Shown: in pieces, positions 3,579 to 18,817 of the stretch
How the letters are laid out: each line of letters opens with the position of its first letter
Numbering within the stretch: position 1 is the first letter of the stretch
Source: a virus
Lineage: Duplodnaviria > Heunggongvirae > Uroviricota > Caudoviricetes
Virus record (IMG/VR): IMGVR_UViG_2534681658_000013
Reading direction: 5' to 3' (one strand)
Length of the DNA stretch: 35,120 bases
The notes under the pieces: generated by a model
What the model was told of the DNA's origin: nothing
What the model saw: only the letters and a program-made list of their open reading frames with translations
The model's database searches: none
Position numbers and translations under genes: made by a program

Positions 3579-4340
3579 ATGGAGACTGTTTTTGACGCAC
3601 TGAAAGCAATGGGAAAAGCCACATCCATAGAACTTGCTGCGCGACTTGATATCAGTCGTGAAGAAGTGCTGAACGAACTATGGGAACTGAAAAAGGCTGG
3701 TTTTGTTGATAAAAGCGCGTACACCTGGCGTGTGGCTGATAACAACGTTCAGCAGGAACAGCCAGCGCAGGCAGAACTGCCGGAAGAAATCACCACAGCA
3801 ACAGTAGCGAAAATCTCAGAGTGCGATTTAACCGCGACGATTGAACAACGAGGACCACAAACGGCTGATGAGCTGGCTACATTGTTTGGTACCACATCAC
3901 GCAAAGTGGCTTCAACGCTGGCAATGGCAATCAGCAAAGGTCGTCTGATTCGCGTAAATCAGGGCGGTAAATTTCGTTACTGCATACCGGGCGATAATTT
4001 ACCAGCAGAGCCGAAAGCAGCATCGGTAGCGGAAACTGATGGTAAGGCCTTTCCTCATACCGCAGGTGTTGCGTTACCAGTACAGGAGGCTGCAACACAG
4101 GAAGATATTAAAACAGAAACTGTGGCGGACATTGTGCAGTCGCTGCCATCGTTTACTGAAACGCGAGCGGATGACCTGGTTTTACCATCACTGCATATGG
4201 CAAACCGCGAACTGCGTCGGGCGAAAAATCATGTCCAGAAGTGGGAGCGAGTCTGCGCCGCGCTGCGGGAGCTGAACAAGCACCGGGATATTGTTCGACA
4301 GATTACTGATTCTTCCCGCCGTGTTGTATCGGAAAAGTGA
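3579..4340 (+). CDS. Hypothetical phage protein, probably winged-helix DNA-binding
   Basis: ATG at 3579 with GGGAGA RBS; N-terminal wHTH-like segment ([30 protein letters not shown]). No family assigned. Confidence 0.55.
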
Positions 4341-4355
4341 TTGCCGGAGGCGCTT

Positions 4356-4787
4356 ATGGCAAAAGTATTTACACAAGAAGAGCGGGAAAAAATTAAAGGG
4401 CAGGTTGTTGAGCTAGTACGCCGGAGTGGGCGCGAGACGTTACGGCAACTGGAAGCCAAGACAGGTGCGACAAGATATCTGATGAGCGTTCTCGCCAGAG
4501 AGCTGGTTGCCAGTGGCGATGTATACAACTCTGGTTACGGGTTATTCCCGTCTGAACAGGCTCGTAAGGACTGGCAAAATGCCCGCAAAAAACTATCCAG
4601 GGCAAAGGTGAAGAAACCATCTGTGGTTGATCCGGACCTTATCTGGTCATTACCAGACGGAGAAATACGCCGCTACGACAGGCGTCTGAACATAATCTGT
4701 CGCGAGTGCCGGAAGAGCGAAGTTATGCAGCGTGTGCTGGCGTTTTATCAGAATGGTTTTCGAGAGAGGCTTGGAGATCAGGGATGA
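4356..4787 (+). CDS. Hypothetical phage protein
   Basis: ATG at 4356 with GGAGG RBS 7 nt upstream; 143 aa; last gene before the AT-rich island. Confidence 0.5.
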   Translation: MAKVFTQEEREKIKGQVVELVRRSGRETLRQLEAKTGATRYLMSVLARELVASGDVYNSGYGLFPSEQARKDWQNARKKLSRAKVKKPSVVDPDLIWSLPDGEIRRYDRRLNIICRECRKSEVMQRVLAFYQNGFRERLGDQG

Positions 4788-4980
4788 ATAGAACGATGAA
4801 GGATGGAAGCTACATATTCTCGGTACTAAGATTTATTTTTCTGACACAAAATGACCATTTGGCGTTACATAATCCCAAAAAAACGTATCAAAAATCTCAA
4901 AATGCGTTACGATTAGAGAGTATTTTGATTCTGCGTGCTCATTTTTTGATTGCTGTGGCTTTTTGTTGTGGGAGTGTTGA

Positions 4981-6135
4981 ATGGATTATTTATCAGAAGT
5001 GTTAAAAATCATTGAAGGTGCAACAAAGGCAAATGCTTCGATGGCTAGTAATTATGCTGGGTTGCTGGCAGATAAGCTCGAACAAAAAGGGGAGGTCAAG
5101 CAAGCCAGAATGATAAGAGAAAGGTTGCTTAGAGCTCCCCAGGCGTTGGCAGGAGCTCAAAGGGCTGGAGGTGGGATATCTCTGGGCTCATTACCGGTAG
5201 ATATTGATAGTCGACTCAACACTGTTGATGTCAGTTATCCTAAATTAGACAGTTCAGAGATTTTTCTGCCTGCAGCAATCAGTACCCGTGTTGAAGAGTT
5301 TATCACTAATGTTCAACGTTATGATGAGTTTGTTAAAGCTGATGCAGCATTGCCGAGTCGTATGCTCGTGTATGGAAAGCCAGGAACAGGTAAGACTATG
5401 TTATCTAAGTACATCGCTACCCGCTTAGATTTTCCACTTCTTACAGTGCGTTGCGATACTTTGATTAGTAGTTTATTGGGACAAACCAGCAAAAATCTTA
5501 GACAGGTTTTCGATTATGTAATGCAGAGGCCATCAGTGCTTTTTTTAGACGAATTTGATGCTTTAGCTGGAGCAAGAGGTAATGAGAGAGATATAGGTGA
5601 GCTTCAGCGAGTTGTCATTTCACTATTGCAGAATATGGATGCGGCATCAGAGGATACGGTAATTATTGCCTCAACTAACCATGAGCAACTTCTGGATCCT
5701 GCAATCTGGAGGCGATTTAGCTTCAGAATTCCAATGCCTCTGCCTGACATACATCAGAGAGAGTTAATTTGGAAAAATCGTTTAAAGAATATGATATGTA
5801 GCGATCTAGATTTAAGTGATTTATCAAGAAAATCGGAGGGATTATCCGGAGCAATAATTGAACAGGTGAGCTTGGATGCACGTAGGGATGCAGTTATTGA
5901 AGGTGCAAGTGTGATAAATCACCATAAATTGTATAGGCGTTTGTATCTTGCGCAATCGCTTATGGAAGGTGTAAATTTAAGCACTTACGAAGATGAAATT
6001 CGTTGGTTACGTTCTAAAGATAAAAAATTATTTTCTATCAGAGTTCTTGCTAATTTGTACAAACTTACATCAAGAGTAATTTCAAACATTCTGAAGGAGT
6101 CAGGAGCATATGAGCAGAAGGGGTACACAGTTTAG
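4981..6135 (+). CDS. AAA+ ATPase (classic AAA family), first gene of a candidate two-gene defence cassette (IetA-like?)
   Basis: Walker A GKPGTGKT (5374..5397), Walker B LFLDEFD (DE at 5548..5553), second region of homology STNHEQLLDPAIWRRF; GGGAGTG RBS before the ATG at 4981; AT-rich codon usage distinct from flanking phage genes. Confidence 0.85.
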   Translation: MDYLSEVLKIIEGATKANASMASNYAGLLADKLEQKGEVKQARMIRERLLRAPQALAGAQRAGGGISLGSLPVDIDSRLNTVDVSYPKLDSSEIFLPAAISTRVEEFITNVQRYDEFVKADAALPSRMLVYGKPGTGKTMLSKYIATRLDFPLLTVRCDTLISSLLGQTSKNLRQVFDYVMQRPSVLFLDEFDALAGARGNERDIGELQRVVISLLQNMDAASEDTVIIASTNHEQLLDPAIWRRFSFRIPMPLPDIHQRELIWKNRLKNMICSDLDLSDLSRKSEGLSGAIIEQVSLDARRDAVIEGASVINHHKLYRRLYLAQSLMEGVNLSTYEDEIRWLRSKDKKLFSIRVLANLYKLTSRVISNILKESGAYEQKGYTV

Positions 6136-8374
6136 TAACGCAAAAGTTACAAACCCAATGTTAAGAATCCCTTTTTCCAGTAGTGACTTGGGTGCAATAG
6201 TAAACGCTGGCGGTGGGGCAAAGGTATTGGTTGATGTAACAGCCGAATATAGACAAGGGCTAGTAAGAAATTTAACAACCAGTAAACATTATTTAGAATC
6301 CAAACTTTCAGAGTACCCTGGAAGCTTGGGTACTTTGGTTTTCAAATTAAGAGACCAGGGAATAGCCAAAACGCATAGGCCGAACAAAATTGCTCAAGAG
6401 GCTGGATTGCAAAATGCCGGTCATGCCAAAATAGATGAAATGTTGGTTGCTGCTCATGCCGGCTGTTTTGACGTATTAGAGTCAGTCATTTTACATCGGA
6501 ATATTAAAGCGATTTTGGCTAATCTAAGCGCGATTGAGCGCATTGAACCTTGGGATGAGAATAGGAAGGTTCCAGGAGGCACTGATGGTTTGTTTGAATC
6601 ATCAAACATCCTTGTACGACTATTTGAGTACACAGGTGAAGATGCAACTTACAACAACTATGAAAACGTTATTTCTATATTAGAACAACACGGAGTTAAA
6701 TATGATGAGATTAGACCAAAATGTGGTCTTCCCTTATTAAGGATAATGGATTTATCCCCAAATGATAGATATATATTAGACATTCTCATTGATTACCCGG
6801 GTATAAGAACGTTAATTCCAGAACCAAAATATTCAGCATTCCCGGTTAGTGTAAGTGATTCTGTTGGCATTGAAACAAATAGCTTTCCCGTACCATCAGA
6901 AGAATTACCCATTGTTGCTGTATTTGACACTGGGGTAAGCCCCATCGCGGCAACAATTACTCCTTGGGTAGTGAGTAGGGAAACATACGTAATTCCTCCT
7001 GATACGAGTTATGAACATGGGACTATGGTGTCTTCATTGATATCAGGCGCTCATTTTTTAAATGACAATCATCCATGGATTCCTGATACAAAATCTAAAA
7101 TCCATGATGTTTGTGCTTTAGATGGAAATGGATCTTATATATCAGATTTAATTCTGAGGCTAGCAGATGCTGTAAATAAAAGACCAGATATAAAAGTCTG
7201 GAATTTGTCTTTGGGAGGCGGACCATGTAATGAGCAGATGTTTAGTGATTTTGCGATGGAGTTAGATCGGCTCAGCGATAAATTTGGTATTTTGTTTGTA
7301 GTTGCTGCAGGTAATTATGTAGATGAACCTATACGTACATGGCCAAATCCTGATCCGCTTGGAGGTGCTGATTTAATTTCCTCTCCTGGAGAGTCAGTCC
7401 GAGCACTAACAGTTGGTTCAGTTTCTCATATGGAAGCTAATGATGCTTTAAGTGAAATTGGAACACCGACACCATATACTCGTCGTGGCCCTGGGCCTGT
7501 ATTTACTCCAAAGCCAGATATAATCCATGCTGGCGGTGGGGTTCATAGACCTTGGAATGTAGGAGCAAGCAGTTTAAAGGTCGTAGGGCCAGATAATAGG
7601 CTTTGCTCTAATTTTGGTACTAGTTTTGCTGCTCCAATTGTGGCAAGTTTAGCTGCGCATACATGGCAGAGAATAGCCACTAATTCAGACTTTAATGTTT
7701 CACCATCATTGATTAAAGCATTATTAATTCATTCCGCTCAATTATCTTCTCCTGATTACTCGCCAAGTGAAAGACGCTATTTGGGAGCGGGAATTCCTAA
7801 TGAGGTTATTGAGACCTTATATGATAGTGATGATAGGTTTACTCTGATTTTCCAAACATTCTTGGTTCCTGGGGTGAGGTGGAGAAAGGAAAACTATCCC
7901 ATACCATCGGCACTTATTCAAAATGGAAAATTTAAAGGTGAGATTGTAATTACTGCTGCATATGCACCACCACTGAACTCTAATGCCGGCAGTGAATATG
8001 TTCGCGCGAACGTAGAGCTAAGTTTTGGCTTAATTGAGAATAATACTATAAAAGGAAAAGTACCTATGGAAGGAGAAAACGGTCAATCTGGATATGAGAG
8101 AGCTCAAATTGAGCATGGTGGAAAGTGGTCACCAGTAAAAATTCATCGCAAGGCATTTAATAAAGGAATTACTTCGGGTAACTGGGCTCTTCAAGCTAAA
8201 ACAACGTTGAGAGCGAATGAACCGGCCTTAATGGAGCCTTTACCTGTAACTATTGTAGTAACTTTAAAATCATTAGATGGAAACACACAAGTTTATGCTG
8301 ATGGCGTAAGAGCTTTAAATGCTAATAACTGGGCTCACTATCCATTGCCTGCTCGTGTGCCAGTTTCCGTATAA
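6110..8374 (+). CDS. Subtilisin-like serine peptidase (MEROPS S8) with large N- and C-terminal domains of unknown function; second gene of the cassette (IetS-like?)
   Basis: Catalytic triad in subtilase order: Asp in VAVFDTGVS (codon 6926..6928), His in HGTMVS (7016..7018), Ser in GTSFAAP (7622..7624). No N-terminal signal peptide. AGGAG RBS; the start overlaps the ATPase gene by 26 nt. Confidence 0.85.
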   Translation: MSRRGTQFSNAKVTNPMLRIPFSSSDLGAIVNAGGGAKVLVDVTAEYRQGLVRNLTTSKHYLESKLSEYPGSLGTLVFKLRDQGIAKTHRPNKIAQEAGLQNAGHAKIDEMLVAAHAGCFDVLESVILHRNIKAILANLSAIERIEPWDENRKVPGGTDGLFESSNILVRLFEYTGEDATYNNYENVISILEQHGVKYDEIRPKCGLPLLRIMDLSPNDRYILDILIDYPGIRTLIPEPKYSAFPVSVSDSVGIETNSFPVPSEELPIVAVFDTGVSPIAATITPWVVSRETYVIPPDTSYEHGTMVSSLISGAHFLNDNHPWIPDTKSKIHDVCALDGNGSYISDLILRLADAVNKRPDIKVWNLSLGGGPCNEQMFSDFAMELDRLSDKFGILFVVAAGNYVDEPIRTWPNPDPLGGADLISSPGESVRALTVGSVSHMEANDALSEIGTPTPYTRRGPGPVFTPKPDIIHAGGGVHRPWNVGASSLKVVGPDNRLCSNFGTSFAAPIVASLAAHTWQRIATNSDFNVSPSLIKALLIHSAQLSSPDYSPSERRYLGAGIPNEVIETLYDSDDRFTLIFQTFLVPGVRWRKENYPIPSALIQNGKFKGEIVITAAYAPPLNSNAGSEYVRANVELSFGLIENNTIKGKVPMEGENGQSGYERAQIEHGGKWSPVKIHRKAFNKGITSGNWALQAKTTLRANEPALMEPLPVTIVVTLKSLDGNTQVYADGVRALNANNWAHYPLPARVPVSV

Positions 8375-8385
8375 CAACTATATAA

Positions 8386-8418
8386 ATCAAACCCGCTGTA
8401 GCGGGTTTGATTTATTTG
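8386..8418 (+). terminator. Rho-independent terminator after the peptidase gene
   Basis: Perfect hairpin aaacccgc-tgta-gcgggttt followed by a T-rich tract (gatttatttg); the palindrome could act in both directions. Confidence 0.6.
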
Positions 8419-8782
8419 TGGGTGTGTTTTATAAAAATACCGCCCATACACAACAAAATACAAAAAGTATTACAGATAAAAAAGGAGCGTAATGTGCAGA
8501 TTTGTTGTTTTCCATATTTACTCACCTTAATATGATTAATCCCGATAAGATTGTTATTTCAGCGGTTTTCAAATGAAATATTATGCTAATTTGGCAGATT
8601 TGCATAACATTAAAATTTAATTTATCTAACCGCTTTTAATAATAAGCGTTGTATTTTTATCCCAGCAATCTGTTGTTTGGTTTTTATTCCATTAAGGTGG
8701 GGCTTTACACTGGAGCCAGTTTATTTATACTTCATACGTCAGCCTGAACAACTGGCACCTGCTGCGCCAGCAGAGAAAACAG

Positions 8783-9061
8783 ATGGCGCACGATACCAAA
8801 TTTTACAATTCGGATAACTCTGCCGCCCCTGCCAGCAGGCACGGGCGGCGTTCTCATGCATTCAAATCTGACTGGTATCAGCACGACCCCTGCACCGAAG
8901 AACAGGCTGAATGGCTCATTCAGTGTTACCGCGGGCGCGGATGCGAGGTTAAAAAAGCCCTTAGCCTCGACTACCGTCACTGGATAATCTCCGTCAGGCT
9001 CCCTTACTCAGAACGGCCAGCGCGTCCGTCCCGCACATTCCAGCAACGGATCTGGAGGTAA
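8783..9061 (+). CDS. Hypothetical protein (92 aa), possibly a gene remnant
   Basis: ORF track; sits between the AT-rich 380-bp non-coding stretch and the DUF968 gene; no recognisable motif; unusual composition (Arg/Trp/His-rich). Confidence 0.3.
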   Translation: MAHDTKFYNSDNSAAPASRHGRRSHAFKSDWYQHDPCTEEQAEWLIQCYRGRGCEVKKALSLDYRHWIISVRLPYSERPARPSRTFQQRIWR

Positions 9062-9062
9062 T

Positions 9063-10121
9063 GTGCGGGTATTACTTCGATCTGTTCTGGTACCGGAACT
9101 CGGTCTGGTTATCGTTAAGCCAGGCCGTGAATCAATGTCAGCATTCCATAACGGCAGAATACTGGTGGAGCCGGAACCAAAAAGCATGCGTAATCTGCCG
9201 TCCGGGGTCGTTCCTGCCGCTCGCCAGCCGCTGGTGGAAGACAAAACATTGCTGCCGTTTTTCAGCGACGAACGAGTGATTCGTGCTGCTGGTGGCGCTG
9301 GCGCATTGTCTGACTGGTTACTGCGCCATGTTAAATCCTGCCAGTGGCCACACGGCGATTATCACCACAGTGAAACCGTCATTCACCGTTATGGTACCGG
9401 CGCAATGGTGTTGTGCTGGCACTGCGACAACCAGTTGCGTGACCAGACCTCAGAATCACTTGAGCAACTTGCTCACCAAAACTTGTCAGCATGGATGATT
9501 GACGTCATCCGTCACGCAATCAGCGGTACGCAGGAGAGGGAGTTATCGCTGGCCGAATTATCCTGGTGGGCGGTCTGCAATCAGGTGGCTGATGCGCTTC
9601 CGGAGTCTGTATCGTGTCGTTCACTGGGATTACCGGTGGAAAAAATCCGCTCCGTATACCGTGAGAGTGACATCGTACCGGGAGAACAGACTGCCACCAG
9701 CATACTGAAGCAGCGCACAAAAAATATTGCGCTGCCACTTCACGCCCACCAGCAACAGCCCCCACTCCAGGAAAAGACGTTAGTAAGCATCGCCGTTGAT
9801 CCGGAGTCTCCGGCTCAGTATCTCCAGCGCCAGAAACCACAACGGGAAGAGATGCCTGTATACACGCGCTGGGTAAAAACGCAGAAATGCATGACGTGCG
9901 GTAATCAGGCAGATGATCCGCATCACATCATTGGTCATGGCCTGGGAGGTATGGGAACAAAGGCTGATGATTTGTTTGTTATTCCGCTGTGCCGTAAATG
10001 TCATAACGAACTGCACGCCGGGGTAAAAGATTTTGAAGAAAAATACGGCAGCCAGCTGTTGTTGCTGATTCGTTTTTTAATGCACGCGAGAAATTCGGGT
10101 GTCCTGAAGTGGAAAGCATGA
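9063..10121 (+). CDS. DUF968-family protein (YdfU-like) with C-terminal HNH/zinc-finger-like Cys-His motifs
   Basis: C-terminal CMTCG...DPHHI...CRKCHNELH motif; GTG at 9063 with a GGAGG RBS (the alternative start is the ATG at 9135); position upstream of rusA in the nin-like region. Confidence 0.65.
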   Translation: MRVLLRSVLVPELGLVIVKPGRESMSAFHNGRILVEPEPKSMRNLPSGVVPAARQPLVEDKTLLPFFSDERVIRAAGGAGALSDWLLRHVKSCQWPHGDYHHSETVIHRYGTGAMVLCWHCDNQLRDQTSESLEQLAHQNLSAWMIDVIRHAISGTQERELSLAELSWWAVCNQVADALPESVSCRSLGLPVEKIRSVYRESDIVPGEQTATSILKQRTKNIALPLHAHQQQPPLQEKTLVSIAVDPESPAQYLQRQKPQREEMPVYTRWVKTQKCMTCGNQADDPHHIIGHGLGGMGTKADDLFVIPLCRKCHNELHAGVKDFEEKYGSQLLLLIRFLMHARNSGVLKWKA

Positions 10122-11463: not shown

Positions 11464-11539
11464 GGCCCTTTAGCTCAGTGGTGAGAGCGAGCGACTCATA
11501 ATCGCCAGGTCGCTGGTTCAAATCCAGCAAGGGCCACCA
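11464..11539 (+). tRNA. tRNA-Ile2 (anticodon CAU, lysidine type; ileX/ileZ-like)
   Basis: Hand-folded cloverleaf: acceptor GGCCCTT/AAGGGCC, D-stem GCTC/GAGC, anticodon loop CTCATAA, T-arm GCTGG-TTCAAAT-CCAGC, encoded CCA. Very close to my recollection of E. coli ileX, so more likely Ile2 than elongator Met. Confidence 0.8.
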
Positions 11540-11639
11540 TCACAAACCGCCATTAGCTTATCAGGAAGAGCAGACGACACGATAACAGGGTTGTTGGTGC
11601 GGGGGCGGGTCCCCGATGGCGGTCCATTATCGGTATTCA

Positions 11640-11713
11640 GCGTTGTTAGCTCAGCCGGACAGAGCAATTGCCTTCTAAGCAATCGGTCACTGGTTCGAAT
11701 CCAGTACAGCGCG
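11640..11713 (+). tRNA. tRNA-Arg (anticodon UCU, reads AGA)
   Basis: Hand-folded cloverleaf: acceptor GCGTTGT/ACAGCGC (one G-U pair), anticodon stem ATTGC/GCAAT with loop CTTCTAA, T-arm ACTGG-TTCGAAT-CCAGT; CCA not encoded. Resembles argN/argO-type tRNAs of lambdoid prophages. Confidence 0.75.
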
Positions 11714-11826
11714 CTATATTCATTCTTCCAGATTCCTTCCGGCAGAGCCTTATACTGAAATATACCTGGCTCAGGATATTGTTGAAAATATTTTATGTTT
11801 GTCAAAAATAAAAGTTCTGTTAAGTA

Positions 11827-12180
11827 TTGATTGAGTGTTTGTTATACGGTCTAATGGTTTTTTCAGCATTAAATATTTATCATTCATATGGTGTGGGTAG
11901 AGTGAATATTGATGAGGCGTCGGGGTGTTTCATCCTTAGGCAGCGTATTGATATAGTCAATGCAGGACGAGCAAAGGCCTTCAGCCGTTTGACAGTTTTG
12001 TTCTGTACTCCTGATCGTCTTTCGGGAAGAGACGTTATTATTCTGAATAGTGATGCTATACAGAGGGTTTGCGATGAGTTCATGGTTGCTAATTCAGAAT
12101 TATTTGCTCTTGTTCAGGAGTACAACAGAATAGCCAGGACCTGTGGTATGGATGAACTTCGGATTACTCATCTGGGGTAG
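11827..12180 (+). CDS. Hypothetical accessory (moron-position) protein
   Basis: ORF track; AT-rich; located between the tRNAs and the lysis cassette, where lambdoid phages carry cargo such as stx. No motif recognised. Confidence 0.35.
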   Translation: MIECLLYGLMVFSALNIYHSYGVGRVNIDEASGCFILRQRIDIVNAGRAKAFSRLTVLFCTPDRLSGRDVIILNSDAIQRVCDEFMVANSELFALVQEYNRIARTCGMDELRITHLG

Positions 12181-12571
12181 ATACATATCTGGATTATCAC
12201 TTGTTACGGTAAAAAGTGATTGCTTACTGTTTTTGTGAGTGGCATTGCAGCAGCCGGATAATGTCAGTGCTGGCTGACGGTGTGCTGGTGGCGGGTGTGG
12301 TGGTTGTTGCTTTCCCGTTGCTGAAAAAGAAAACGCCAGACTGTTAGCCGGGTATCAGTTAGCGGGAGAAATTTTTAAATACTTCACAATTCAGGCGGTT
12401 GACTGTTGTCTGGTTTGCGGGGAGTTTGTTAAAAGAAACTGGCATGGTGAATCCCCCTGTGCGGAGGGGCAATCAGCGAGTAGGTATATGGGATAATCGC
12501 GGATTCAGGTGCTGGTACTGAATTCACCGGGAGGCACCCGGCACCATGCAATGGCACATAGCGCCACTCTC

Positions 12572-12600
12572 CAGCCCCTCTCCGGAGGGGCTGTTTATAT
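12572..12600 (+). terminator. Strong intrinsic terminator hairpin
   Basis: 9-bp perfect stem cagcccctc-tccg-gaggggctg followed by TTTATATTGATTTT. Confidence 0.5.
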
Positions 12601-12627
12601 TGATTTTGTCAGATGTGAGTAAACTCC

Positions 12628-12963
12628 TTATGGACTTTGTTGTTTTAGTCCATAAGGACATATTTGCAGAGTGCAACGGTTATTAAAGCATTCATTCAAT
12701 ACGTTATCTGTATTTGTAGGACATTCCTGGCTGTTTTTGATTAAATTCCAGAATGTTTTATTGAATGGTACTACGTTGTAAATGGTTACAGGTAGCACTT
12801 TGTTATTGAGCATGATACCTGTGTGAGTCAGTGTAAATATACTTTCAGGAGGTAAGAAAGCATCCGATTGATACCAGATTATTAATTTTATTTTACTCCA
12901 TATGACTGAAAAAGATATTCCGCATGATGGCTGGATAACTGTATCAATCACAATCCACTTCAT
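12628..12963 (-). CDS. Hypothetical accessory protein, antisense to the late operon
   Basis: ORF track; very AT-rich; opposite orientation to surrounding late genes. Confidence 0.35.
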
Positions 12964-13223
12964 TTAGCTTCCTTGTTTATGCCTTGCTGGTGATGTTCTG
13001 AAAAGTATAAATGATATTTTTGAATATAAACCATAGAGCAGAATTATTTTTCTGATGTTGTTTATTGTTTATTTAAATGCAGGGTGGTTTATATCTCGTC
13101 TTGTAGTTTATCCATGCATATCTGCTTGATGATCAGGTTTCTATTTAAGGTATGGTTTTGTGTTTTTTCTGTGTTACATGTCTGGTATTTTAAAGAATTA
13201 TTTTTCAGATGGTGGAAAGAACC

Positions 13224-13412
13224 ATGGCATTTAAACACTATGATGTTGTCAGGGCGGCGCCGCCGTCAGATCTTGCGGAAAAGCTGACACATAAACTGAA
13301 AGAGGGCTGGCAGCCGTTTGGTAGTCCGGTGGCCATAACCCCTTATACCCTGATGCAGGCGATTGCAGCAGAAGGTGATGTGGTGGTCAGTGGTGCAACT
13401 GAGCCCGAGTGA
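13224..13412 (+). CDS. Small conserved lambdoid-prophage protein upstream of holin (possibly DUF1737-like)
   Basis: ATG at 13224 with GGAAAG RBS (the ORF track starts 5 codons earlier at 13209); 62 aa. Family name is from memory and uncertain. Confidence 0.45.
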   Translation: MAFKHYDVVRAAPPSDLAEKLTHKLKEGWQPFGSPVAITPYTLMQAIAAEGDVVVSGATEPE

Positions 13413-16368: not shown

Positions 16369-16917
16369 ATGAAGGTTAATAAAAAGAGGCTTGCCGAAAT
16401 TTTCAACGTGGACCCGCGGACGATTGAACGCTGGCAGTCTCAGGGACTCCCTTGCGCCTCCAAAGGTAGTAAGGGCATTGAATCTGTATTTGATACTGCC
16501 ATGGCAATTCAGTGGTATGCGCAGAGGGAAACTGATATCGAAAACGAAAAGCTCCGCAAAGAACTGGACGATTTGCGTGCGGCAGCGGAGTCAGATTTAC
16601 AACCCGGCACCATTGACTATGAACGCTACCGGCTCACAAAAGCGCAGGCAGATGCGCAGGAACTGAAAAATGCCCGTGAAGACGGAGTAGTGCTGGAAAC
16701 TGAACTGTTTACCTTCATTCTGCAACGTGTGGCACAGGAGATTTCGGGGATACTTGTGCGTGTGCCGTTGACATTACAGCGTAAATATCCGGACATTTCA
16801 CCATCACACCTTGATGTGGTGAAAACTGAAATCGCGAAAGCCTCCAATGTTTCAGCTAAGGCCGGTGAAAACGTGGGCGGGTGGATCGATGATTTCAGAC
16901 GCGCAGAAGGCAGCTAA
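16369..16917 (+). CDS. nu1: Terminase small subunit Nu1
   Basis: N-terminus [28 protein letters not shown] is near-identical in pattern to lambda Nu1 (MEVNKKQLADIFGASIRTIQNWQEQGMP); 182 aa. Confidence 0.9.
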
Positions 16918-18817
16918 TGCAGCCGGTGCGATAGCAACAGGGCTTTTATCTCTCATTATTCCTGTTCCACTGACGACAGTTCAGTGGGCCAATAAACATT
17001 ATTACCTTCCTAAAGAGTCGTCTTATACCCCGGGGCGGTGGGAAACACTGCCGTTTCAGGTTGGCATCATGAACTGTATGGGCAACGATTTGATTCGCAC
17101 TGTTAACCTGATTAAATCTGCCCGTGTTGGTTATACAAAGATGTTGCTGGGAGTGGAGGCTTATTTTATTGAGCATAAATCACGCAACAGCCTTCTTTTT
17201 CAGCCCACGGACTCAGCTGCTGAAGATTTTATGAAATCTCATGTTGAGCCAACGATAAGGGAGGTTCCTGCGTTGCTGGAGCTGGCTCCATGGTTCGGAA
17301 GAAAACACCGCGATAATACGCTCACCCTGAAGCGTTTTTCCTCCGGTGTGGGTTTCTGGTGTCTGGGGGGAGCGGCAGCAAAAAACTACCGTGAAAAATC
17401 CGTGGATGTGGTCTGTTATGACGAGCTTTCCTCGTTCGAACCGGATGTTGAAAAAGAGGGTTCGCCAACCCTGCTGGGGGATAAACGTATTGAGGGCTCT
17501 GTATGGCCCAAATCCATTCGCGGCTCGACTCCTAAAATCAAAGGCTCCTGCCAGATCGAAAAAGCCGCTAACGAGTCGGCACACTTCATGCGTTTTTATG
17601 TGCCCTGTCCGCACTGTGGGGAGGAGCAGTATCTGAAATTTGGCGATGAGTCCACGCCTTTTGGGCTTAAATGGGAGAAGGACAGCCCCGAAAGCGTTTT
17701 CTACCTCTGTGAGCATCATGGCTGCGTGATCCATCAGTCTGAACTGGACCAGAGTAACGGGCGGTGGATCTGTGAAAACACGGGCATGTGGACCCGTGAC
17801 GGCCTGACGTTTTTCAGCGCTGCGGGTAATGAAATTCCGCCGCCGCGCTCCATCACTTTCCATATCTGGACGGCGTACAGTCCGTTCACCACCTGGGTAC
17901 AGATTGTCTATGACTGGCTGGATGCACTGAAAGATCCCAACGGCCTGAAAACCTTTGTGAACACCACGCTGGGCGAGACCTGGGAAGAGGCTGTGGGCGA
18001 AAAAATCGATCACCAGGTACTGATGGATAAGGTTGTGCGTTACACGGCGGCGGTGCCTGCCCGGGTGGTTTATCTGACGGCGGGCATTGACTCGCAGCGA
18101 AACCGTTTTGAGATGTATGTCTGGGGATGGGCTCCGGGAGAGGAAGCCTTTCTGGTGGATAAAATCATCATTATGGGGCGTCCCGATGAGGAAGAGACGC
18201 TGTTACGTGTGGATGCGGCGATCAACAAAAAATACCGCCATGCAGACGGAACCGAAATGACTATTTCCCGTGTCTGCTGGGACATCGGGGGGATCGATGG
18301 CGAAATCGTTTATCAGAGGTCAAAAAAACACGGTGTTTTCCGGGTGCTGCCGGTAAAAGGCGCATCTGTCTATGGCAAGCCGGTGATCACCATGCCAAAA
18401 ACCCGCAATCAGCGGGGCGTGTATCTGTGTGAAGTGGGGACGGACACCGCAAAAGAAATTCTCTATGCCCGTATGAAAGCCGATCCCACGCCTGTGGATG
18501 AAGCCACGTCGTATGCCATCCGTTTTCCTGATGATCCGGAGATTTTTTCGCAGACAGAGGCGCAGCAACTGGTCGCGGAAGAGCTTGTGGAGAAGTGGGA
18601 AAAAGGAAAGATGCGTCTGCTGTGGGATAACAAAAAGCGGCGTAACGAAGCGCTGGACTGCCTGGTGTATGCCTACGCGGCATTACGTGTGTCCGTGCAA
18701 CGCTGGCAGCTTGATCTGGCTGTACTGGCAAAATCCCGGGAAGAAGAGACGACCCGGCCAACCCTTAAAGAACTGGCAGCGAAGCTGTCCGGAGGAGTGA
18801 ATGGTTACAGTCGCTGA
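16889..18817 (+). CDS. A: Terminase large subunit A
   Basis: Long blocks match lambda gpA as recalled ([20 protein letters not shown], KSARVGYxKMLLG, [19 protein letters not shown], [15 protein letters not shown]); start overlaps the Nu1 end. The ORF track starts 14 codons earlier at 16847. Confidence 0.9.

What the first reader, a model, noticed from the sequence alone, without database searches (positions are those of the whole stretch)
4790..8780. Compositionally distinct (AT-rich) island with its own terminator and flanking non-coding DNA
From about 4790 to about 8780 the sequence is visibly more AT-rich than the flanking phage genes (exact GC not computed). About 190 bp of AT-rich non-coding DNA precedes the ATPase gene and may hold a promoter. 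After the peptidase stop there is a perfect palindromic terminator (8386..8418) and then about 360 bp with no ORF of 60 aa or more. This looks like a horizontally acquired module with its own transcription unit rather than part of the phage early operon.
Basis: seen in the sequence. Interest (0 to 1): 0.5.

Follow-up and report, generated by a model that had tools for sequence, protein, structure and literature searches.

The report
IetAS anti-phage cassette in prophage hotspot
The AT-rich stretch is real and is a known two-gene anti-phage defence cassette (IetA ATPase plus IetS protease) with its own promoter-like motif and terminator, sitting in a swap-in/swap-out cargo slot of an E. coli lambda-like prophage; it is an ordinary example of a known kind.

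Summary
Window 4790-8780 has GC 0.39 against 0.51-0.53 in the flanks, and it is the lowest 4-kb stretch in the window. The two genes are IetA (4981-6135) and IetS (6110-8374), the IetAS/IteAS defence and toxin-antitoxin system. Both score above NCBIfam's curated cut-offs, and identical DNA is already annotated iteA/iteS in RefSeq. The cassette is accessory: 78 of 5426 complete E. coli genomes carry it.

It sits between lygF (DUF977) and the nin/Q genes of an ompW-integrated lambdoid prophage. In relatives the same slot holds at least 20 other cargos, including Tmn, CBASS, RosmerTA, AbiH-like and PD-Lambda-2 components, and nearly always hok.

A 30-nt promoter-like motif (4884-4913) and a terminator just after ietS accompany ietAS in Citrobacter, Klebsiella and Morganella. 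The motif, but no comparable terminator, is also present in Salmonella. These loci include different genomic positions, which supports an own transcription unit.

It is conserved prophage backbone, present in 742 genomes, mostly without ietAS. Low GC is a stable trait of the gene family and does not indicate recent arrival. Known system, low novelty.

The parts
4341..4787 (+). lygF-like DUF977 gene, the left anchor of the cargo slot. Homology to ietAS-less relatives ends at 4751-4762, inside its last codons.
   Evidence: Pfam DUF977 E 2e-28. BLAST end points are 4751, 4762 and 4717, supported by the alignment. In IMG/VR loci, LygF matches full length (1-148) only next to ietAS and only to residue 141-144 next to other cargos.
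4763..4858 (+). Junction segment specific to the E. coli version: the variant lygF 3' end plus about 70 nt of AT-rich spacer. It is not shared with the Citrobacter cassette.
   Evidence: Homology to L008 starts at 4859, and homology to ietAS-less phages ends by 4762.
4878..4913 (+). A-tract plus conserved promoter-like motif CGTATCAAAAATCTCAAAATGCGTTACGAT. The inferred -35 is GTATCA (4885-4890), followed by a 17-nt spacer and a -10 of TACGAT (4908-4913). The inferred transcription start is near 4920.
   Evidence: The motif is conserved upstream of ietA in 7 aligned contexts: E. coli, Citrobacter, Klebsiella, Morganella, Salmonella and two viral contigs. The degenerate pattern occurs once in the window, with 0 expected by chance. 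It occurs once in each of 40 loci, all on the ietA strand, and not in the other 104 loci, which include the two Pseudomonas ietAS loci. Promoter function is inferred, not shown.
4970..4974 (+). Shine-Dalgarno-like GGGAG, 6 nt before the ietA ATG.
   Evidence: Read from the sequence.
4981..6135 (+). ietA (iteA), an AAA+ ATPase of 384 aa. Walker A is GKPGTGKT (132-139), Walker B is LFLDEFD (187-193), and an RRF arginine motif lies at 244.
   Evidence: PADLOC IetA E 8.9e-143. NCBIfam NF042959 scores 526.6 bits against a cut-off of 510. Pfam AAA E 2.6e-30. The AAA domain (99-307) is most like p97/Cdc48.
6110..8374 (+). ietS (iteS), a subtilisin-like S8 serine protease of 754 aa. It overlaps ietA by 26 nt, and SD-like AAGGAG/AGGAG lies at 6094-6106. 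The catalytic residues are D273, H303 and S505, with oxyanion N402. The protein has an N-terminal alpha/beta region of about 250 aa and a C-terminal beta domain.
8382..8415 (+). Intrinsic, bidirectional-looking terminator: ATAAATCAAACCCGC-TGTA-GCGGGTTTGATTTAT followed by TTTG. It is also the right recombination junction of the cargo.
   Evidence: dG -23.9 kcal/mol, z -6.5, with the inverted repeat found. Equivalent AAACCCGC-N4-GCGGGTTT hairpins follow ietS in Citrobacter, Klebsiella and L025, and a similar one follows it in Morganella. hokD-bearing relatives have a near-identical hairpin at the same place, and homology resumes at 8390-8401.
8428..8767 (+). Conserved AT-rich non-coding backbone element. 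It is the right anchor of the slot and NOT part of the ietAS cassette. It holds a promoter-like site TTTACA-16-TATACT (8704-8731), a small hairpin with a T-run (8631-8648), and a 12-codon mini-ORF (8492-8530) with SD AAGGAG at 8482.
   Evidence: It is covered at 80% or more in 742 of 5426 E. coli genomes and is unannotated there. It lies downstream of hokD in ietAS-less prophages. A copy at 76% identity occurs in phage 666R9. There are 106 IMG/VR stretches. It has no Rfam match, and its overall fold is no better than shuffles, z -0.94.
8783..10121 (+). A 92-aa ORF and the DUF968 (ydfU-like) gene, the first nin-region genes to the right of the slot. They are followed by rusA and Q.
   Evidence: Pfam DUF968 E 2.7e-63, RusA and Antiterm Q, and the RefSeq annotation of the identical prophage.

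Best explanation
The island is a self-contained IetAS (NCBI: IteAS) cassette, a 'moron'-type insert. It sits in the cargo slot between the replication-module gene lygF and the nin/Q region of an intact-looking lambdoid prophage integrated at ompW in E. coli.

Shown here:
- Gene identity, intact catalytic motifs, and an overlapping two-gene operon.
- Low GC relative to the flanks.
- Accessory distribution among E. coli genomes.
- A conserved promoter-like motif in every enterobacterial context examined, and a predicted terminator after ietS in all of them except Salmonella.
- The same slot holds many alternative defence cargos in related prophages.
- The boundaries fall inside conserved flanks, with no transposon-like repeats.

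Inferred:
- The cassette is transcribed from its own weak sigma-70 promoter (-10 TACGAT at 4908-4913, start near 4920) in the lysogen.
- It is additionally transcribed by read-through from the early-right operon after induction.
- Transcription stops at the hairpin at 8382-8415.
- Cassettes are exchanged between related prophages by recombination in the conserved flanks (the lygF 3' end, and the terminator plus the 340-bp element).

Taken from the literature on homologues, not tested for this allele:
- The IetS protease is the toxic effector and the IetA AAA+ ATPase restrains it, acting as an antitoxin.
- A phage-encoded trigger releases protease activity, causing growth arrest or abortive infection that protects the lysogen population.
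- The protease substrates and the way IetA controls IetS are unknown.
For: - Identity. RefSeq annotates 100%-identical DNA as iteA/iteS.
- Motifs.
- Composition.
- Accessory status: 78 of 5426 genomes.
- Slot diversity: 58 IMG/VR loci with both anchors fall into 21 cargo clusters. These include Tmn, AbiH-like, PD-Lambda-2_C, CBASS cyclase plus 2TM effector, RmrT/RmrA and an LmuA-like domain.
- Same slot in other genera: Citrobacter, Klebsiella and other lambdoid prophages with different replication genes.
- Other positions: next to int at icd in Morganella and near proA in Salmonella, both still carrying the upstream motif.
- Motif specificity.
- Terminators after ietS in homologues.
- No flanking direct or inverted repeats.
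- Literature: IetAS was described as a serine protease toxin with an ATPase antitoxin. Protease activity is needed for defence, ietA could not be inactivated, and the mechanism is unknown (PMC13069673). A B. cereus ietAS acts by abortive infection triggered by SPbeta yosG (bioRxiv 10.1101/2022.08.27.505566). [quoted passage not shown]
Against: - There are no expression or phenotype data for this allele.
- The inferred -35 matches the consensus at only 3 of 6 positions, and the simple promoter scan did not call the site.
- The motif pattern was derived from 7 of the loci in which it was then counted, so that count is partly circular.
- No terminator was predicted between lygF and ietA, so the cassette is not insulated from early-operon transcription.
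- The terminator core (CCCGC/GCGGG) is a very common motif. Its likeness to the hok terminator could therefore be shared ancestry, a recombination joint, or chance.
- In published EOP tests an E. coli ietAS alone gave limited protection.
Confidence: 0.85

Rival explanations
1. The cassette acts mainly as an addiction (toxin-antitoxin) module that stabilises the prophage. In this reading it takes over the role of the hok/sok locus that nearly all other cargo variants keep at the right end of the slot, and anti-phage defence is secondary.
For: IetAS was first described as a plasmid-stabilising toxin-antitoxin pair (cited in PMC13069673). Among 21 cargo clusters, 19 carry hok, in 18 of them about 107 nt from the conserved element. 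The ietAS cluster is one of only two without hok, and its right joint lies at the position of the hok terminator. E. coli ietAS alone protected weakly in EOP assays (bioRxiv 10.1101/2022.08.21.504612).
Against: Homologues defend against phage in a protease-dependent way (PMC13069673; bioRxiv 10.1101/2022.08.27.505566). In Klebsiella and Citrobacter prophages ietAS is followed by dinI, so no hok replacement is implied there. The two roles are not mutually exclusive.
Confidence: 0.2
2. The cassette has no promoter of its own. It is expressed only as part of the early-right operon after induction or infection, and it serves the phage's lytic programme, for example exclusion of co-infecting phages or host takeover.
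For: The cassette has the same orientation as the replication genes, and no terminator was predicted between lygF and ietA. The consensus scan did not call a promoter in 4788-4980.
Against: The 30-nt upstream motif, with a -10-like TAC(G/A)AT and an A-tract, stays with ietA where the cassette lies next to int (Morganella) or in a chromosomal island (Salmonella), and no early operon lies upstream there. Non-coding conservation exceeds that of the surrounding spacer.
Confidence: 0.12
3. The compositional contrast marks a recent one-off acquisition by this prophage from a low-GC donor, with the whole of 4790-8780 as the inserted unit.
For: There are sharp GC steps at about 4790 and about 8780.
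Against: 8428-8767 is shared backbone in 742 genomes. ietAS homologues at 69-81% DNA identity occupy the same slot in other lambdoid prophages and have the same low GC. The block from DUF1627 to 8767 is 99% or more identical in the 60 ietAS genomes listed (of 78 carriers), so it travels as a mosaic segment rather than as a fresh insertion.
Confidence: 0.05

Closest known systems
IetAS / IteAS defence system (Gao et al. 2020; PADLOC IetA/IetS; NCBIfam NF042959/NF042956). It was first described as the ietAS toxin-antitoxin pair of an Agrobacterium Ti plasmid (Yamamoto et al. 2009, as cited in PMC13069673).
   Same: Both proteins match full length above curated cut-offs. The order is ATPase then protease, with overlapping genes, and the Walker motifs and Asp-His-Ser triad are intact. 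Identical DNA is annotated iteA/iteS in RefSeq.
   Different: Nothing at the sequence level. Activity of this allele is untested, and it is carried by a prophage rather than a plasmid.
Morons of lambdoid phages (Juhala/Hendrix concept; recalled from my own knowledge, not from a tool).
   Same: The extra genes have deviant base composition, their own promoter-like element and their own terminator. They are set co-directionally into an operon of a mosaic lambdoid genome.
   Different: No 'empty' site was found in which lygF abuts the right anchor. The slot always holds some cargo, of 1.35 kb or more. Promoter activity is inferred only.
Prophage and satellite defence hotspots (P2/P4 hotspots: PMC9122126, PMC9519451).
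   Same: Conserved flanking sequences bracket highly variable cargo enriched in known defence systems. Cargo is AT-rich and 1.4-5 kb long.
   Different: The phage family differs (Rac/Qin/PPompW-type lambdoids) and so do the anchors (lygF on the left, hok plus a 340-bp non-coding element on the right). I did not find this particular slot described in the papers searched, and that search was not exhaustive.
relBE-hokD cluster of the E. coli K-12 Qin prophage.
   Same: It occupies an equivalent position: right of the dicA/dicC immunity and replication remnants, left of rem/ydfU/Q. It contains hokD at the right end of the cargo.
   Different: Qin carries relBE and rem. It lacks ietAS and the 340-bp element, and homology to the window resumes only at 8766.

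Membership tests
IetAS (IteAS) defence / toxin-antitoxin system | An AAA+ ATPase matching the IetA family model over its full length. | tested here: met
   PADLOC PDLC02196 E 8.9e-143, covering residues 1-374. NCBIfam NF042959 (equivalog) scores 526.6 bits against a cut-off of 510.
IetAS (IteAS) defence / toxin-antitoxin system | An S8 subtilisin-like protease matching the IetS family model over its full length. | tested here: met
   PADLOC PDLC02197 E 8.4e-300. NCBIfam NF042956 scores 1039.4 bits against a cut-off of 900.
IetAS (IteAS) defence / toxin-antitoxin system | The two genes are adjacent and co-directional, with ietA upstream of ietS. | tested here: met
   ietA is 4981-6135 and ietS is 6110-8374, a 26-nt overlap, with an SD before the ietS ATG.
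IetAS (IteAS) defence / toxin-antitoxin system | Catalytic residues are intact: Walker A and B in IetA, and the Asp-His-Ser triad in IetS. | tested here: met
   GKPGTGKT at 132 and LFLDEFD at 187. D273, H303, S505 and N402 are invariant in 37 homologues.
IetAS (IteAS) defence / toxin-antitoxin system | Protease-dependent protection against phage, and toxicity of IetS relieved by IetA. | not testable with these tools
   Known only from homologues in the literature (PMC13069673; bioRxiv 10.1101/2022.08.27.505566).
Moron of a lambdoid phage | Base composition distinct from the surrounding phage genes. | tested here: met
   GC 0.39-0.40 against 0.51-0.53, and GC3 0.27-0.33 against 0.44-0.62.
Moron of a lambdoid phage | Its own promoter. 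| tested here: inconclusive
   A conserved -10-like/-35-like motif travels with ietA in 7 contexts. It is a weak consensus match and there are no expression data.
Moron of a lambdoid phage | Its own terminator. | tested here: met
   The strong hairpin with a T-tract at 8382-8415. Equivalent terminators follow ietS in four other contexts. These are predictions only.
Moron of a lambdoid phage | Inserted between genes that are adjacent in related phages. | tested here: inconclusive
   The flanks are conserved, but every relative examined has some other cargo in the slot. No empty site was found.
Prophage defence hotspot | Conserved anchors with variable cargo enriched in defence systems. | tested here: met
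   21 cargo clusters in 58 loci. PADLOC hits include Tmn, AbiH, PD-Lambda-2_C, CBASS cyclase plus 2TM effector, RmrT/RmrA and LmuA-like.
hok/sok type I toxin-antitoxin (considered for the terminator and downstream DNA) | Presence of a hok/mok reading frame. | tested here: not met
   tblastn with Hok finds nothing in the ietAS cargo, while 19 of 21 other cargo clusters have it. There is no Rfam hit in 4600-9100.
Transposon or insertion-sequence-borne cassette | Terminal inverted repeats or target-site duplications at the boundaries. | tested here: not met
   There are no boundary repeats in 4700-8480.

The most novel reading that the evidence does not exclude
The slot from lygF to hok plus the 340-bp element in Rac/Qin/PPompW-type lambdoid prophages may be a defence hotspot that has not yet been catalogued. 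This backbone matches in about 88% of complete E. coli genomes. Two features would make it interesting.

First, the ietAS cassette has displaced the otherwise near-universal hok/sok locus there. That suggests functional equivalence: an addiction or abortive-infection module swapped for another.

Second, several cargos have no hit in the defence-system library and little or none in Pfam. Examples are the 370+333 aa pair in L031, the 465-aa protein next to the AbiH-like gene in L087, the 834-aa protein in L088 and the DUF5677 protein in L039. These would be candidate new defence systems.

The conserved 340-bp element could also be a functional regulatory or recombination anchor. It has a promoter-like site, a mini-ORF, and a hairpin whose two observed substitutions both keep G-U pairing on the plus strand.
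Probability: 0.3. Interest if true: 0.45.

Novelty: already known. Interest (0 to 1): 0.2.

Why it matters
For the finding itself the value is mainly correct annotation. The AT-rich island is a known defence cassette and not a new element, its right-hand 340 bp belongs to the phage backbone, and low GC here is a family trait rather than a clock.

Three modest points may be useful to others:
- A conserved 30-nt promoter-like motif marks enterobacterial ietAS cassettes and gives a concrete target for promoter mapping.
- The cassette occurs in at least three kinds of position: the replication/nin slot, next to int, and a chromosomal island.
- The surrounding slot is a rich place to mine for further defence candidates. 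The mechanism of IetAS itself remains unknown in the literature.

Tried and rejected
- Rfam found nothing in the island at gathering threshold. At E<=1 there was only a chance-level Leu_leader hit over the terminator.
- Folding the 357-nt downstream region gave no structure beyond shuffles, z -0.94. A long structured RNA was therefore dropped.
- A repeat search found no transposon-like ends.
- ORF 4706-5005, annotated 'kinase (fragment)' in ON470595, was not scanned against any family library and overlaps both neighbouring genes. I treated it as spurious.
- A PDB sequence search found no solved IetA or IetS, only generic p97-type AAA domains and subtilases.
- The single genome-contig scan returned only 3 loci, because it relies on exact peptide words. 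Contexts in other genera were recovered through the look-up of encoding contigs instead.
- The Gao 2020 and Yamamoto 2009 papers are not held, so their content is cited second-hand from PMC13069673.
- Literature searches for a description of this particular lambdoid slot found only general P2/P4 and prophage hotspot papers.


Full report
OBSERVATION. The sliding GC profile drops from 0.52 to about 0.40 at roughly 4750 and returns to 0.55 at roughly 8780. Computed directly, 4790-8780 has GC 0.392. The adjoining 2 kb are 0.513 (left) and 0.525 (right), and the whole window is 0.517. It is the lowest 4-kb stretch of the window: the minimum is 0.391 at 4741, and 0.35% of such windows are as low. 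Third-position GC is 0.325 for the ATPase gene and 0.27 for the protease gene, against 0.44-0.62 in eight neighbouring genes.

The 193-bp upstream spacer (4788-4980, GC 0.352) and the downstream stretch without a long ORF are as described. The palindrome is real. Its arms are 8382-8397 and 8400-8415, they are perfectly complementary, and the RNA dG is -23.9 kcal/mol with z = -6.5.

IDENTITY. ORF 4981-6135 (384 aa) matches PADLOC IetA (E 8.9e-143). It also matches NCBIfam 'anti-phage ATPase IteA' at 526.6 bits against a cut-off of 510. ORF 6110-8374 (754 aa) matches PADLOC IetS (E 8.4e-300) and NCBIfam 'S8 family anti-phage peptidase IteS' at 1039 bits against a cut-off of 900.

The genes overlap by 26 nt, and an SD precedes the ietS ATG. 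IetA has Walker A and B motifs and an arginine motif. IetS has D273, H303 and S505 plus N402, and these columns are invariant in 37 homologues spanning Enterobacterales, Pseudomonas, Aeromonas, Burkholderia, Comamonas and Ralstonia.

SETTING. In those genomes the element is a lambdoid prophage integrated next to ompW. Its gene order is as follows:
- int and xis
- exonuclease
- dicB, ydfA, ydfB and ydfC
- repressor, Cro-like gene and YdaT
- O-like gene, DnaC-like gene, DUF1627 and DUF977 (lygF)
- iteA and iteS
- a 92-aa ORF, DUF968, RusA and Q
- tRNAs, lysis genes and terminase

The window's copy has an uninterrupted terminase gene, whereas strain 602354 has an IS66 insertion there.

ACCESSORY STATUS AND BOUNDARIES. 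Only 78 of 5426 complete E. coli genomes carry this ietAS, whereas parts of 4000-9600 match in 4789 genomes.

On the left, homology to ietAS-less relatives ends at 4751-4762, inside the last codons of lygF. On the right it resumes at 8390-8401, inside the terminator hairpin.

The 364 bp after the terminator are covered at 80% or more in 742 genomes, nearly ten times the number with ietAS, and are unannotated there. In ietAS-less prophages this segment lies about 107 nt downstream of hokD, after a terminator (AACCCGC-TTCG-GCGGGTTTATTTTAT) that closely resembles the one after ietS. The segment ends at 8767, whichever genes follow it (the 92-aa ORF with DUF968, or DUF1367).

No direct or inverted repeats mark the cassette ends, so exchange by recombination in the conserved flanks is the simplest reading. 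That reading is an inference.

THE SLOT IS A HOTSPOT. A 24-nt pattern from the backbone element retrieved 106 IMG/VR stretches. Among 58 loci that also hold lygF, the intervening DNA falls into 21 clusters of 1.35-5 kb with GC 0.36-0.48.

The cargos include:
- ietAS (10 loci)
- a Tmn/YobI-type NTPase
- an AbiH-like protein with a 465-aa partner
- PD-Lambda-2_C plus a 'cll' protein
- a CBASS cyclase with a 2TM effector
- RosmerTA (RmrT/RmrA)
- an AAA/Cap4-nuclease/LmuA-like protein
- a DUF5677 protein
- several proteins with no defence-library hit and little or no Pfam support

Nineteen clusters keep hok, in 18 of them at a fixed 106-109 nt from the element. The ietAS cluster is one of two that lack it. 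The relBE-hokD cluster of K-12 Qin lies in the equivalent position.

OWN PROMOTER AND TERMINATOR. More distant ietAS copies occupy the same post-replication slot in lambdoid prophages that have different replication genes. These are Citrobacter at 81% DNA identity, two viral contigs at 69-71%, and Klebsiella. In Morganella the cassette lies between icd and the prophage int gene. In Salmonella it lies beside proBA.

Homology between the E. coli and Citrobacter copies runs from 4859 to the ietS stop codon. In all seven contexts aligned, an A-tract and the motif CG...CAA.A.....A...T.CG.TAC.AT precede ietA. In the window this motif is 4884-4913, with a -10-like TACGAT and a weak -35 GTATCA at a 17-nt spacing.

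The pattern occurs once in the window, with 0 expected by chance. It occurs once in each of 40 loci, all on the ietA strand, and not in the other 104 loci, which include the two Pseudomonas ietAS loci. This count is partly circular, because the pattern came from seven of those loci.

Hairpin terminators of the type AAACCCGC-N4-GCGGGTTT follow ietS within 8-70 nt in E. coli, Citrobacter, Klebsiella, L025 and (in variant form) Morganella.

No terminator was predicted between lygF and ietA, so read-through from the early-right operon remains likely as well.

COMPOSITION IS A FAMILY TRAIT. The ietAS genes are 0.38-0.42 GC in E. coli, Citrobacter, Klebsiella, Morganella and Salmonella, and 0.54 in Pseudomonas. 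They sit about 6-15 GC points below the adjoining prophage or chromosomal DNA in six of the seven loci, although several flanks are themselves AT-rich, despite 19-31% DNA divergence among the enteric copies. The contrast marks foreign-type accessory DNA and not a recent event in this phage.

MECHANISM. The following points come from the literature:
- IetAS was described as a toxin-antitoxin pair, with the protease as toxin and the ATPase as antitoxin.
- Protease activity is required for defence.
- ietA could not be inactivated in a related system.
- The anti-phage mechanism 'remains unknown' (PMC13069673).
- A B. cereus ietAS works by abortive infection, and expression of SPbeta yosG is enough to trigger it (bioRxiv 10.1101/2022.08.27.505566).

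My best account is as follows. The lysogen expresses IetA and IetS from the cassette promoter. The p97-like AAA+ IetA keeps IetS inactive. An infecting phage's product breaks this control, and IetS proteolysis stops the cell. The first step is inferred here and the rest is carried over from homologues. A prophage-addiction role, replacing hok/sok, is a live alternative and is not exclusive of the first.

VERDICT. The finding is a correct observation of a known system in a known kind of place. Novelty is low. The corrections are the boundaries, the status of the 340-bp segment, and the meaning of the low GC.

Noticed in passing
window 8428-8767: An AT-rich non-coding element that is conserved and unannotated. 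It is present at 80% coverage or more in 742 of 5426 E. coli genomes and always lies at the right edge of the cargo slot. Strongly conserved blocks are 8475-8525, 8605-8645 and 8695-8765. It contains a promoter-like site TTTACA-16-TATACT (8704-8731) pointing towards the nin/Q genes. Its function is unknown.
   Followed up: partly
window 8482-8530 and 8631-8658: A 12-codon mini-ORF (ATG at 8492, TAA at 8528-8530) with a strong SD, AAGGAG, at 8482. Its length is not conserved: the 76%-identity copy has 9 codons. There is also a small hairpin, CGCTT-TTAATAAT-AAGCG, followed by a T-run. The two substitutions seen in variant copies both give G-U pairs on the plus strand only. A second promoter-like site (8509-8536) could give a transcript of about 110 nt ending at this hairpin. 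The evidence is thin.
   Followed up: partly
L031, L087, L088, L039 (cargo between lygF and hok): Alternative cargos in the same slot have no hit in the defence library and little or none in Pfam. They are a 370+333 aa pair (weak HEPN/RES-NTD and GNAT hints), a 465-aa protein beside an AbiH-like gene, an 834-aa protein, and a 345-aa DUF5677 protein. All are candidate defence genes.
   Followed up: partly
L008 8340-8362; L025 8582-8602; L138 8497-8658: In Citrobacter, Klebsiella and other lambdoid prophages, ietAS is followed by a DinI-like gene. In L008 and L025 (sequence read) it is preceded by LexA-box-like palindromes (TACTGTATAAATATACAGT in L008; TACTGTATGAATATACAGT, one mismatch, in L025). 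An SOS-regulated gene therefore sits directly after the cassette.
   Followed up: no
L141 (Morganella) 4860-8265; L143 (Salmonella) 4932-8259: ietAS occurs at other positions. In Morganella it lies between icd and the prophage int/xis genes. In Salmonella it lies beside proBA in the chromosome. Both copies keep the same upstream motif.
   Followed up: partly
L137 (E. coli K-12 Qin prophage) 3652-4873: The classical relBE-hokD-rem cluster of Qin lies in the slot equivalent to the one holding ietAS here. Homology to the window resumes only at window 8766.
   Followed up: partly
window 11464-13250: Downstream of Q there are two tRNA genes (11464-11536 and 11640-11713) and the sRNA STnc100 (12413-12602, 132 bits). 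There is also a second low-GC patch (0.32-0.45), which in the identical RefSeq prophage holds a DUF3927 gene and an IraM-like anti-adapter gene. This is another moron-type region.
   Followed up: no
[not shown]
   Followed up: no
window 4706-5005: A 99-aa ORF spans the lygF end, the spacer and the ietA start. Its shorter form is annotated 'kinase (fragment)' in phage record ON470595. It was not scanned against any family library, and the annotation is probably an artefact.
   Followed up: partly
window 16847-18817 vs L007 25007-27707: The terminase large-subunit gene is intact in the window. In the otherwise 99.96%-identical prophage of strain 602354 it is split by an IS66-family element. The window's prophage therefore looks potentially functional.
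   Followed up: partly
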